Origin: a virus
Taxonomy: Duplodnaviria > Heunggongvirae > Uroviricota > Caudoviricetes
Reading direction: 5' to 3' (one strand)
IMG/VR virus record: IMGVR_UViG_651053023_000012
Location: 1-14,727 of that record
DNA length: 14,727 nt
The notes below the pieces were generated by a model, which saw only the letters and a list, made by a program, of their open reading frames with translations, did no database searches and was not told the DNA's origin. Positions 8,685-10,966 of the stretch are shown piece after piece. The position numbers were made by a program, and so were the translations under genes. Within the stretch, counting starts at the first letter, position 1, and each line of letters opens with the position of its first letter.

Positions 8685-8710
8685 AAAAAAACAAAACCCG
8701 CCGAAGCGGG
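8685..8710 (-). terminator. Intrinsic terminator (minus strand) downstream of the lipoprotein gene.
   Basis: Minus strand: CCCGC-ttcg-GCGGG followed by TTTTGTTTTTTT. Confidence 0.55.
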
Positions 8711-8840
8711 TATGCTAAAACAAACTGAAGGTAATATGCCGGACTTGTAAAGGAACGATAGAATAATTATCGGATTAAATCCTGACTCAATCCATAGGAT
8801 TTACAGCGTTTTCACTAATAATTTACCGTCCCGCTATACA

Positions 8841-9233
8841 TTACTGCCCAGTTTTAACGAAGTTTTTAAAGGAAACAATTGCCTGATAGGGGTTTGGTTG
8901 ACAGCCAAACATATTATCGCAAAAAGGCTTGATGAAAATTCTTGCGGATCCATCTTCATTTGGCATTTTACTCACTTGATAAGCGAGGAATGGGCTATTT
9001 GGTGAAGGGTTATAAGTGGAAATTAGCGTGTTTGTCGCCGTTTGAATTTTCCATGAGGAATTATTAGCCAACCAGAATTGCGCTCGTTTCCAATAAAAGT
9101 CACATTGCTTTTCATCTTTACATGTTAGTGGCTTCATTGCTTCTGCTTTCAACGCTGGATCGACCTTTGCTGCACACCCTCCCAACATTACTGTTGCAAT
9201 CATTACACCTACGACTAAAACAAGTTTCTTCAT
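8841..9233 (-). CDS. Lipoprotein of unknown function (AT-rich moron).
   Basis: Signal peptide MKKLVLVVGVMIATVMLGGC with a lipobox L-G-G-C. The coding sequence is visibly AT-rich. GGGAG lies just upstream of the ATG. Confidence 0.7.
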   Translation of the reverse strand: MKKLVLVVGVMIATVMLGGCAAKVDPALKAEAMKPLTCKDEKQCDFYWKRAQFWLANNSSWKIQTATNTLISTYNPSPNSPFLAYQVSKMPNEDGSARIFIKPFCDNMFGCQPNPYQAIVSFKNFVKTGQ

Positions 9234-9290
9234 CTCCCTGCCCCATCAATAAAAGTTCGGTTCTCTAATAACTAGAGTTAATCAACGGAA

Positions 9291-9308
9291 AAAACGCCGA
9301 AGCGGGTT
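9291..9308 (-). terminator. Weak candidate terminator downstream of hok.
   Basis: Minus strand: CGC-c(UUCG)g-GCG short stem with a UUCG tetraloop, followed by T6. Confidence 0.35.
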
Positions 9309-10156: not shown

Positions 10157-10966
10157 ATGACGAAAATTAGTGAACGATGGAAGCACAATGGCATTACTGA
10201 AGGTTATTGCAATATTTGTGGGAAATATGGCTTGCTCACAAAAGATCATGTTCCTCCAAAGTGCGCCATAACCTTAGGCCCTGTTTTGCAGAAAACAGTT
10301 AGCGAATTTTTTGGTATTCAGGAACCAGTTAAACCATTAAATGCTAAAAATGGCTCTTATTTCAGAACCATTTGCAGCCACTGTAACAATAAGGTATTAG
10401 GTGGGCTCGATGTTGCAATTGAAAATGTAACAAAGTCCTTTAAAGAACAGTTAAGGCGATATATGAATGGTATGAATGTATATCCATTCATTAGAATACC
10501 TTTTGATAGCATATCTTTCACTAAGGCTATGATTGGGCACGTGCTATCAGCAACTTCAGTTGAAGATTGTAAAAAAGAACCCGTAGATAGCCCCTTCTAT
10601 ACACCTTTAAAGGATTATGTTTTGGGTAAAAATTCAAGTTTTGAGGAAACTCATGATATTTACTACTGGTTTTACCCACACAGAATGCACATATCCGCTC
10701 AAAGTGTAGCATTTATGAACGAAGGACATGTGGCATTTATTTGTGCTTTACATTTTTTCCCTATCGGTTTTATTATCACAATGAAAAATGAAGGAACATA
10801 CCCTGCCCACTCTACAAAATTAGAACTTGAAGATAAATTCCTTACATTTAATATGACCTCTATAAATTATGAGTATACGACATTTCCATTTGTAAATCTT
10901 AAGGGAAACCAAATGTATGCGATAAGCAACGGTCATACTTGTGTGAGTTATCCAATAATTAAGTGA
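10157..10966 (+). CDS. Protein with an N-terminal McrA-type HNH nuclease motif and a ~185-aa C-terminal domain of unrecognised family; candidate defence/toxin cargo or free-standing homing endonuclease.
   Basis: CNICGK-x8-DHVPPK-...-N-...-CSHCNN within the first ~80 aa. GAGGG lies 7 nt upstream of the ATG. The gene is visibly AT-rich and on the opposite strand to all neighbouring phage genes. Confidence 0.7.
   Translation: MTKISERWKHNGITEGYCNICGKYGLLTKDHVPPKCAITLGPVLQKTVSEFFGIQEPVKPLNAKNGSYFRTICSHCNNKVLGGLDVAIENVTKSFKEQLRRYMNGMNVYPFIRIPFDSISFTKAMIGHVLSATSVEDCKKEPVDSPFYTPLKDYVLGKNSSFEETHDIYYWFYPHRMHISAQSVAFMNEGHVAFICALHFFPIGFIITMKNEGTYPAHSTKLELEDKFLTFNMTSINYEYTTFPFVNLKGNQMYAISNGHTCVSYPIIK

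What the first reader, a model, noticed from the sequence alone, without database searches (positions are those of the whole stretch)
8841..9233. AT-rich lipoprotein moron between the nin-like genes and hok
The ORF has a clear signal peptide and lipobox (LGGC), is visibly AT-rich, and is followed by its own terminator. Prophage lipoproteins in this kind of position are often superinfection-exclusion or receptor-masking factors (Cor/Llp-type) or serum-resistance factors (Bor-type), but this 130-aa sequence does not resemble those I can recall. It could be an uncharacterised exclusion factor.
Basis: partly seen in the sequence, partly recalled or inferred. Interest (0 to 1): 0.5.

Follow-up and report, generated by a model that had tools for sequence, protein, structure and literature searches.

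The report
Mobile prophage lipoprotein gene, function untested
The finding is a real, well conserved outer-membrane-type lipoprotein gene carried as a self-contained 596-bp insert in a defective E. coli prophage. It belongs to a large unnamed family that occurs almost only on phages, small plasmids and integrons, often right behind the phage repressor gene, so it most likely protects the carrier cell's envelope (probably against incoming phages), but nobody has tested this.

Summary
A 130-aa ORF lies on the minus strand at 8841-9233. It has a signal peptide, the lipobox LGGC, low GC and its own terminator, and it sits between hokD and the DUF968/RusA/Q genes of a Qin-like prophage.

It is a discrete 596-bp cassette flanked by a 19-nt duplicated hairpin. 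Other E. coli have the same site empty or filled with different cargo such as rem. About 4.6% of complete E. coli genomes carry the cassette, always annotated as a hypothetical protein.

The protein has no match in Pfam, NCBIfam, PADLOC or PDB sequences and is not Cor, Llp or Bor. It does belong to a large family of 1085 clusters at 50% identity. An AlphaFold model (pLDDT 94) gives a small two-layer alpha/beta domain with four conserved cysteines. The fold resembles Flpp3, KA1 and BamC-N, which says nothing about function.

Relatives always sit on mobile elements:
- inside lambdoid tail-tip modules in six enterobacterial contexts;
- directly downstream of the CI repressor in four other temperate phages;
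- as the main cargo of 2.5-4 kb ColE1-type plasmids;
- as an integron cassette.

Best reading: a lysogen-expressed envelope protection factor, most likely superinfection exclusion (about 0.45). Immunity against a cell-wall-degrading enzyme is the main rival. No experiment supports either.

The parts
8841..9233 (-). Coding sequence of a 130-aa prolipoprotein (RefSeq WP_000737647.1, 'hypothetical protein'). The stop codon is at 8841-8843.
   Evidence: ORF list. 100% DNA match to annotated E. coli genomes. Full-length match to PHROG 16082, E = 2.8e-82, function unknown. Purifying selection.
9177..9233 (-). Signal peptide, residues 1-19 (MKKLVLVVGVMIATVMLGG). The lipobox L17-G18-G19-C20 is encoded at 9174-9185.
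   Evidence: Read directly from the sequence. Cys20 is invariant in 64 of 64 family members. Ala at +2 predicts sorting to the outer membrane in E. coli by the +2 rule (established knowledge; not tested here).
8844..9176 (-). Mature domain, residues C20-Q130 (111 aa, 12.6 kDa, pI 9.0). After a short tether helix (26-32) it is a beta-alpha-beta4-alpha two-layer sandwich. Two conserved Cys pairs: C38/C44 and C105/C111 (motif C-x-N-x-F-G-C).
   Evidence: AlphaFold2 model with mean pLDDT 94.3 and pTM 0.82. Conservation. Mass and pI. Disulfide pairing is inferred, not shown.
8685..8711 (-). Intrinsic terminator of the cassette: hairpin at 8696-8711 plus a U-tract at 8685-8695. In alleles without the insert, this same hairpin is the hokD terminator.
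   Evidence: Terminator scan. Folding energy -13.1 kcal/mol, z = -2.8. Alignment with the empty-site allele L003.
8712..8840 (-). 3' untranslated part of the cassette, about 129 nt. Many E. coli alleles are about 70 nt longer here.
   Evidence: Alignment A2. Survey of downstream sequences across loci. Hit H24 spans 1471 nt against 1401 nt of query.
9289..9307 (-). Upstream copy of the 19-nt direct repeat, i.e. the hairpin sequence, with CC changed to AA. This copy no longer folds into a terminator.
   Evidence: Repeat family D1: 8693-8711 and 9289-9307, 596 nt apart, 89% identical. No hairpin in the minimum-energy fold; -5.5 kcal/mol, z = -0.2. The broken form is present in essentially all E. 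coli carriers examined.
9234..9291 (-). 5' region that travels with the gene. It holds the leader ACTTTTATTGATGGGGCAGGGAG with the ribosome-binding site (9234-9256), a weak -10-like TATTAG (9265-9270) and a -35-like TTTCCG (9286-9291).
   Evidence: Alignment A4 of upstream regions from six other phage slots shows the same order: hairpin, -35-like, -10-like (TATGAT or TAGGAT), then conserved leader. The Yersinia copy scores as an extended -10 promoter. The consensus scan finds no promoter in the E. coli copy, so promoter activity here is uncertain. Coordinates.
8712..9307 (-). The 596-bp insert as a whole (the moron cassette), relative to empty-site alleles.
   Evidence: The empty-site allele L003 spans 806 bp against 1401 bp in the window. 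The alignment places both junctions at the repeated hairpin.

Best explanation
The ORF encodes a small lipoprotein carried on a self-contained 596-bp moron cassette. The cassette was inserted at the hokD terminator of a Qin-like lambdoid prophage.

Predicted pathway of the protein (inferred):
- It is exported.
- It is lipidated at Cys20.
- Because residue +2 is Ala, the Lol system carries it to the inner leaflet of the outer membrane.
- There a short tether holds a compact, disulfide-stabilised alpha/beta domain in the periplasm.

Proposed function (inferred): the prophage, plasmid or integron that carries the gene expresses it constitutively. The protein acts alone, binding a conserved envelope component or an incoming phage part. 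This blocks entry of superinfecting phage at or after adsorption, so it would be a superinfection-exclusion factor unrelated in sequence to Cor and Llp. The two conserved Cys-bracketed loops (P-L-x-C...Q-C and C-x-N-x-F-G-C) are the likely binding surface.

Shown here:
- gene, lipobox, cassette boundaries and terminator;
- purifying selection;
- a high-confidence fold prediction;
- exclusive association with mobile elements;
- linkage to the repressor gene and to tail modules.

Inferred only: lipidation, localisation, expression in the lysogen, disulfides, target and the exclusion phenotype.
For: The gene is a mobile single-gene cassette:
- Empty-site, rem-bearing and other-cargo alleles exist at the same E. 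coli site.
- Copies 63-82% identical occupy different slots of lambdoid tail-tip modules:
  - between tape measure and M in Enterobacter;
  - between K and I in Yersinia, L076 and L077;
  - between I and J in Pantoea;
  - next to an M remnant in Phytobacter.
- Each of the three intact contexts scanned (Enterobacter, Pantoea, Yersinia) has its own terminator. All share a promoter-like 5' module.

Lysogenic expression is implied:
- In four unrelated temperate phages, a homologue lies directly downstream of the CI-type repressor, on the same strand, opposite a cro/YdaS-like gene. These loci are L085, L087, L088 and L090.
- In L087 the gap is 34 nt, holds a strong ribosome-binding site and has no terminator.
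- This is the position of lambda rexAB (my own knowledge).

Other contexts:
- next to HEPN_AbiU2;
- an integron cassette bounded by attC sites GCCTAAC...GTTAGGC;
- an integrase island with a capsid gene;
- the main cargo of 2.5-4 kb ColRNAI plasmids.

Other support:
- There is no partner gene in common across contexts, so the protein works alone.
- Precedent: lipoprotein genes inside the structural cluster of mEpimmI coliphages exclude phages when expressed from a plasmid (PMC11893012).
- Omega of 0.07-0.12 shows the protein is under selection.
Against: - No experiment bears on this protein or on any family member. It is called a hypothetical protein everywhere, and the accession number appears in no paper.
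- It has no homology to any known exclusion lipoprotein and no PADLOC hit.
- The E. coli copy has only a weak promoter match. It may depend on read-through from hokD across the broken hairpin.
- The receptor-binding C-termini of J differ among carriers. This argues against masking of a cognate receptor.
- The family spans Enterobacterales, Burkholderiales, Acinetobacter, Shewanella and Gilliamella, so any target must be broadly conserved.
- Some members use LysM instead of a lipid anchor, or carry a C-terminal PDZ domain. That fits a cell-wall-associated role as well as or better than a receptor block.
- In Gilliamella the gene lies about 2 kb from an orphan Imm-NTF2 immunity gene.
Confidence: 0.45

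Rival explanations
1. It is a periplasmic immunity or inhibitor protein against a peptidoglycan-degrading enzyme. Candidate enzymes are a type VI secretion effector, a bacteriocin such as colicin M or pesticin, host lysozyme, or a phage tail lysin. The conserved disulfide-closed loop C-x-N-x-F-G-C would plug the enzyme's active site. If the enzyme were a phage tail lysin, this reading merges with superinfection exclusion, as with T4 Sp acting on gp5 (my own knowledge).
For: - The family is broad, which demands a conserved target.
- Cysteine-bracketed loops are invariant.
- Some members are fused to peptidoglycan-binding LysM in Acinetobacter phage-plasmid-like replicons (phrog_4186).
- Other members are fused to a C-terminal PDZ domain.
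- It is a single-gene cargo on tiny plasmids and in an integron array, as orphan immunity genes often are.
- The Gilliamella copy sits in a region with an orphan Imm-NTF2 immunity gene, E = 2e-41.
Against: - No toxin or effector gene is adjacent in any of about 20 contexts.
- The most recurrent contexts are phage-specific, behind the repressor or in tail-tip modules. That is not where orphan immunity genes are usually found.
- Only one locus lies near another immunity gene.
Confidence: 0.22
2. It is a lysogenic-conversion fitness or virulence factor for the host, not an anti-phage factor. It would be a Bor-like or Flpp3-like envelope lipoprotein that alters serum resistance, adhesion, envelope stress tolerance or outer-membrane biogenesis.
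For: - The carriers listed include pig ETEC, poultry APEC-type and ST131 strains.
- Morons commonly encode such factors (my own knowledge).
Against: - It is not a member of the Bor or Lom families.
- Fold similarity at 12-13% identity, to a very common alpha/beta sandwich also seen in eukaryotic KA1 domains, carries no functional information.
- The family is abundant in environmental, non-pathogenic bacteria and in metagenomes.
- Placement behind phage repressors and next to AbiU2 points to phage-phage conflict.
Confidence: 0.13
3. It takes part in the carrier element's own life cycle. Examples would be a lysis or release lipoprotein (an o-spanin or a colicin-lysis-protein analogue), a tail-assembly or ejection accessory, or a plasmid entry-exclusion protein.
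For: - It lies inside tail operons.
- There is a weak PHROG match to an Rz-like spanin, E = 0.13.
- It occurs on mobilisable ColE1-type plasmids that also carry MbeD exclusion genes.
Against: - It is absent from most relatives of each phage: empty-site alleles exist and only 2 of 50,697 phage records carry it. It is therefore dispensable for the life cycle.
- It is not in the lysis cassette and has no i-spanin partner.
- The spanin match covers the signal peptide region only.
- A folded 111-aa domain is unlike Rz1 or colicin lysis peptides.
- Having its own terminator inside a late operon, and a position behind the repressor, both indicate independent, lysogenic expression.
Confidence: 0.05

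Closest known systems
Cor (phi80, N15, T1, HK022, mEp167), an outer-membrane lipoprotein that inactivates FhuA
   Same: It is a small prophage-encoded lipoprotein, acts as a single gene, is encoded near tail genes and is non-essential for the phage.
   Different: There is no sequence relationship: the phrog_1119 match (E = 0.007) covers only residues 1-44, the signal peptide and tether. The mature domain here is larger, at 111 aa, and has four conserved cysteines. Carriers do not share one receptor-binding type. The family extends far beyond hosts that have FhuA.
Llp of phage T5, a lipoprotein that blocks FhuA from the periplasmic side
   Same: It has a predicted outer-membrane anchor, faces the periplasm, contains disulfides and acts alone.
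   Different: No homology was detected. The predicted fold and the size are different. Llp is linked to its cognate receptor-binding gene, and no such linkage to one receptor-binding type exists here.
Lpp exclusion lipoproteins of mEpimmI coliphages (PMC11893012)
   Same: These are lipoprotein genes inside the structural or tail gene cluster of temperate coliphages. Experiments show that they exclude phages.
   Different: Neither tblastn search of the phage collection, with the window protein or with the Citrobacter-type homologue P0020, found mEp phages, so they are not detectably related. Exclusion by those lipoproteins tracks the receptor used. That is not evident here.
Genes co-transcribed with the prophage repressor (lambda rexAB) and the HK97 gp15 moron
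   Same: The genomic logic matches: an accessory gene sits directly behind cI (four phages here), or is a discrete moron inside tail genes, and is expressed from the prophage to exclude other phages.
   Different: The proteins are unrelated. Those are inner-membrane or cytoplasmic proteins, while this one is a secreted lipoprotein.
Flpp3 / DUF3568 of Francisella, with the BamC N-terminal and KA1 domains (structural neighbours)
   Different: Identity is only 12-13%. Profile searches find no sequence signal. Foldseek E-values are 0.02 or worse. The functions of these neighbours are unrelated or unknown.
Bor (lambda), a serum-resistance lipoprotein
   Same: It is a lipoprotein moron of a lambdoid prophage.
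   Different: There is no Pfam Lambda_Bor match, and the size and predicted fold are different.

Membership tests
Bacterial lipoproteins (signal peptidase II substrates) | An N-terminal signal peptide ending in a lipobox [LVI][ASTVIG][GAS]C, with the Cys conserved. | tested here: met
   The sequence is MKK, a hydrophobic core, then L-G-G-C20. Cys20 is invariant in 64 of 64 members, and homologues carry LSGC, LAGC or LVGC.
Bacterial lipoproteins (signal peptidase II substrates) | Actual lipidation with globomycin-sensitive processing, and localisation to the outer membrane. | not testable with these tools
   Only the +2 rule can be applied (Ala at +2 suggests the outer membrane in E. coli). That is inference.
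Moron (independent accessory transcription unit in a phage genome) | A discrete insert between genes that are adjacent in related phages. | tested here: met
   The 596-bp insert is bounded by a 19-nt repeat. Empty-site alleles and alleles with other cargo exist. The same gene occupies at least four other slots in other phages.
Moron (independent accessory transcription unit in a phage genome) | Its own terminator, and a base composition different from the flanks. | tested here: met
   The terminator is at 8685-8711. Homologues in the three intact contexts scanned have their own terminators. Gene GC is 36-41% against 44-53% in the flanks of all enterobacterial carriers.
Moron (independent accessory transcription unit in a phage genome) | Its own promoter, active in the lysogen. 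| tested here: inconclusive
   A promoter-like module is conserved across carriers, and the Yersinia copy has an extended -10 match. The E. coli copy fails the consensus scan, and the upstream hairpin is broken, which would permit read-through from hokD. No expression data are available.
Cor superinfection-exclusion family | Sequence homology of the mature protein to Cor (PHROG 1119). | tested here: not met
   The phrog_1119 match (E = 0.0072) covers only residues 1-44, which is the signal peptide and tether.
Lambda Bor, Lom/Ail and TraT families | A match to the Pfam family model. | tested here: not met
   The Pfam scan at E up to 1 returned only one chance hit to a collagen C4 domain. Across 64 relatives the only match was one member's weak hit (E = 0.0065) to DUF6491, a family of unknown function.
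Known anti-phage defence systems (PADLOC-DB v2) | A match to any PADLOC model. | tested here: not met
   There were no hits for the window protein or for three diverse relatives.
DUF3568 / Flpp3 | Sequence-profile membership, over and above similarity of fold. | tested here: not met
Superinfection-exclusion factors (a functional class) | Expression reduces infection by superinfecting phage at adsorption or entry. | not testable with these tools
   Only context supports this: a position behind the repressor in four phages, and a tail-module position in six contexts.

The most novel reading that the evidence does not exclude
This is the E. coli representative of a large, unnamed family of single-gene envelope defence proteins, with at least 1085 clusters at 50% identity. 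They spread on prophages (behind cI or inside tail modules), phage-plasmids, tiny ColE1 plasmids and integron cassettes across beta- and gamma-proteobacteria. They would block phage genome entry through a conserved periplasmic or cell-wall-level target, not through a strain-specific receptor. That would make it a broad-range exclusion mechanism, different in fold and logic from Cor and Llp.
Probability: 0.3. Interest if true: 0.7.

Novelty: new variant of a known kind. Interest (0 to 1): 0.5.

Why it matters
Prophage lipoproteins that block superinfection shape phage host range and can defeat phage therapy. Only a few families are known (Cor, Llp and a few others), and each is tied to one receptor.

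This family has several features that make it worth testing:
- It is large and absent from Pfam, NCBIfam and PADLOC.
- Its fold is confidently predicted.
- It works as a single gene.
- It sits in positions reserved for lysogen-expressed genes.
- It occurs in about 5% of complete E. coli genomes. The best-matching carriers listed include a pig O141:H4 clinical isolate, a strain named ETEC1716, poultry and APEC-named strains and an ST131 strain.

If it is a broad, receptor-independent entry block, or an inhibitor of cell-wall hydrolases, it would add a new envelope-level defence. It would also explain why such a small gene is kept on plasmids of only 2.5 kb. If it proves inert against phages, the result is still a clean description of a moron insertion hotspot at the hokD terminator.

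Tried and rejected
Family and sequence searches:
- Pfam, NCBIfam and PADLOC scans of the protein gave nothing usable.
- Pfam and NCBIfam scans of 64 relatives also gave nothing.
- PDB sequence searches with two family profiles found nothing.
- The accession number appears in no paper. Four further literature searches gave only the mEpimmI precedent.

Structure searches:
- Foldseek against PDB and against viral structures gave nothing with E below 0.001.
- The AlphaFold database library was not available.
- Model coordinates could not be read, so disulfide pairing and surface features could not be examined.

Ideas tested:
- Cognate-receptor idea: I compared the last 250 aa of J from six carriers. 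Three share one type and three are unrelated, so there is no single receptor-binding type.
- Spanin or lysis protein: rejected on position, size and lack of a partner.
- Cor: rejected, because the match covers the signal peptide only.

Locus scans that gave little:
- Species-representative genomes gave nothing with the close alignment and one locus (Gilliamella) with P0164.
- The metagenome scan gave only three loci.

Full report
**1. The observation**

The window has a 130-aa ORF on the minus strand at 8841..9233. Its N-terminus, MKKLVLVVGVMIATVMLGG|C, is a textbook lipoprotein signal with lipobox L-G-G-C. The cysteine is invariant in a 64-member family alignment, and relatives have LSGC, LAGC or LVGC.

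The gene is 39.7% GC against 47.1% for the window. Local 300-nt windows read 38-41% GC over the gene and 50-58% on both sides.

A hairpin with a U-run lies at 8685-8711, about 130 nt after the stop codon. Its folding energy is -13.1 kcal/mol, z = -2.8.

hokD lies upstream. A 92-aa gene, DUF968/YdfU, RusA and Q lie downstream, all on the same strand.

**2. What the locus is**

The window matches a defective Qin-like lambdoid prophage next to mtfA and a tRNA-Ser gene in E. coli O141:H4 strain P13-6. The 681-nt and 1401-nt stretches I searched match it at 100% identity. There the ORF is WP_000737647.1, 'hypothetical protein'.
- 249 of 5426 complete E. coli genomes carry the gene, while about 4500 share only the flanks.
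- The gene sits in a 596-bp insert bounded by a 19-nt direct repeat, at 8693-8711 and 9289-9307.
- Alleles with one repeat copy and no insert exist (L003). Others hold rem (L005) or an unrelated 290-bp filler (L004) at the same point.
- The repeat is the hokD terminator hairpin. The copy after the lipoprotein gene is intact. The copy between hokD and the gene has lost two stem bases and no longer folds. This broken form is present in essentially all E. coli carriers examined.

**3. The cassette moves between slots**

Homologues 63-82% identical occur in other Enterobacterales, always inside lambdoid tail-tip modules but at different junctions:
- between the tape-measure gene and M in Enterobacter;
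- between K and I in Yersinia and in two IMG/VR phages, L076 and L077;
- between I and J in Pantoea;
- next to an M remnant in Phytobacter.

In the three intact contexts scanned (Enterobacter, Pantoea, Yersinia), a terminator follows the gene; in Yersinia it follows the gene plus a 161-aa partner. All these contexts share the same upstream layout: a hairpin, a -35-like and a -10-like element (TATGAT or TAGGAT), then a conserved leader ACTTTTAYTGATGGGGATAGGGA.

The Yersinia copy scores as an extended -10 promoter. The E. coli copy has only TATTAG and fails the scan.

All enterobacterial copies are 36-41% GC in flanks of 44-53%. Synonymous sites are saturated while dN is 0.11-0.33, and omega is 0.07-0.12 where it can be computed. 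This is a classical moron under purifying selection.

**4. The protein and its family**
- Pfam, NCBIfam, PADLOC and PDB sequence searches give nothing.
- PHROGs place it in phrog_16082, function unknown. The match to the Cor family covers the signal peptide only.
- A profile search of 1.84 billion cluster representatives finds 1085 relatives at E up to 0.001 and 472 at E up to 1e-10. Most are 125-135 aa with a lipobox.
- Four cysteines are conserved: C38, C44, C105 and C111, the last two in the motif C-x-N-x-F-G-C. The spacing within each pair varies between members, which suggests two local disulfide-closed loops. That is inference.
- AlphaFold2 with 64 sequences gives pLDDT 94.3. After a short tether helix (residues 26-32), the mature domain is a beta-alpha-beta4-alpha two-layer sandwich.
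- Some members add a C-terminal PDZ domain after a proline-rich linker.
- In about 110-kb Acinetobacter replicons, the domain follows a cleavable signal peptide and a LysM domain instead of a lipobox (phrog_4186).

**5. Wider contexts**
- In four unrelated temperate phages from higher-GC proteobacteria, the homologue is the next gene after the CI-type repressor. It lies on the same strand, divergent from a cro/YdaS-like gene. These are L085 and L087, L088 (repressor phrog_12107) and L090.
- In L087 the gap is 34 nt, with a strong ribosome-binding site and no terminator.
- One homologue lies next to HEPN_AbiU2.
- One lies in an integrase island with a capsid gene.
- Two lie beside integrases or insertion sequences.
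- One is a gene cassette in an integron array with 12 attC-like repeats that start GCCTAAC and end GTTAGGC.
- A 43%-identical homologue, WP_032201349.1, is the main accessory gene of 2.5-4 kb ColRNAI plasmids in Citrobacter and Salmonella. The same protein is also on an 8.6-kb Enterobacter plasmid typed to a different replicon cluster.
- In Gilliamella it lies about 2 kb from an orphan Imm-NTF2 immunity gene.
- No partner gene is shared between contexts.

**6. Mechanism**

Shown:
- The gene is a single-gene module that is selected for and travels on mobile elements.
- The product has every sequence feature of a secreted lipoprotein.
- Several phages place it where lysogen-expressed genes sit.

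Inferred: the protein goes to the outer membrane (Ala at +2) and exposes a disulfide-stabilised binding domain in the periplasm. It protects the carrier cell, most likely by blocking entry of superinfecting phage.

The precedent is experimental. Lipoprotein genes in the structural cluster of mEpimmI coliphages exclude phages when expressed alone (PMC11893012). However, those proteins are not detectably related to this one.

The narrower Cor/Llp idea, masking the phage's own receptor, is weakened for two reasons. The J C-termini of carriers fall into unrelated types. The family also spans many genera and anchor types.

The main rival is a periplasmic inhibitor or immunity protein against a cell-wall hydrolase. 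That fits the LysM and PDZ fusions, the conserved Cys loops, the plasmid and integron cargo status and the Gilliamella context. Against it, no toxin gene is adjacent anywhere and no structure matches a known inhibitor. The two readings converge if the inhibited enzyme belongs to an incoming phage tail.

My estimates are:
- exclusion, 0.45;
- hydrolase or toxin immunity, 0.22;
- host fitness or virulence factor, 0.13;
- a role in the element's own life cycle, 0.05;
- something else, the remainder.

**7. Comparison and novelty**

It works like a moron-encoded exclusion lipoprotein, but it fails the membership tests for Cor, Llp, Bor and every PADLOC model. No curated library names the family and no paper mentions it. 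I rate it a new variant of a known kind: a prophage lipoprotein moron with a new fold family and an unusually broad distribution across mobile elements.

Interest is moderate at 0.5. The genomic pattern is clear and directly testable, but function rests on context alone.

Noticed in passing
window 8685-8711 and 9289-9307; loci L003, L004, L005: The hokD terminator is a cargo hotspot. Different E. coli carry nothing, rem, this lipoprotein, or an unannotated insert of about 290 bp at exactly this point.
   Followed up: partly
window 10157-10966 (+): A second AT-rich ORF (about 35% GC, 269 aa, with several CxxC-like motifs) lies on the opposite strand to its neighbours, between the replication genes and hokD. 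It matches phrog_21495 (function unknown) and has no Pfam or PADLOC hit. It looks like another moron. In strain P13-6 a gene annotated as an integrase-core-domain protein (transposase-like) lies between hokD and this ORF; the window lacks it.
   Followed up: partly
window 1841-1917 and 3325-3401: A 77-nt direct repeat (97% identical) places a fragment of the M15 endolysin gene in frame at the start of the truncated J (tail-tip) ORF at 702-2132. This is a rearrangement scar of the defective prophage. The Ais-like heptose(II)-phosphate phosphatase gene lies between the two copies.
   Followed up: no
window 4672-4981 (-): Three tRNA genes (Gly-tcc, Thr-tgt, Met-cat) lie between the holin/endolysin genes and an AraC-type regulator gene (5008-5721). 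ARAGORN calls the third one Met by its CAT anticodon, whereas RefSeq annotates it as tRNA-Ile in the identical strain.
   Followed up: no
L009 1-10170: This contig is a chromosomal integron cassette array with 12 attC-like repeats of about 125-150 nt (GCCTAAC...GTTAGGC). Gene callers translate each repeat as a spurious 35-aa ORF. Other cassettes include an Adhesin_E-like lipoprotein.
   Followed up: partly
L012 8403-8888 and L013 5465-5950: In Yersinia the lipoprotein gene is followed by a 161-aa ORF (phrog_8179, function unknown) before the shared terminator. This may be a two-gene version of the moron.
   Followed up: no
cluster look-up of the window protein: The 90%-identity cluster that holds this protein also contains many Hok-family toxins. 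This is evidently a clustering artefact, caused by partial or fused gene calls that span hokD and the lipoprotein gene. The member count of 1137 for that cluster should therefore not be read as the gene's abundance.
   Followed up: no
L084 6776-7345 (Acinetobacter baumannii replicons of about 110 kb): 126 Acinetobacter plasmid records carry a version made of a signal peptide, a LysM domain and this family's domain (phrog_4186). It sits near ParB and helicase genes. These replicons may be phage-plasmids.
   Followed up: no
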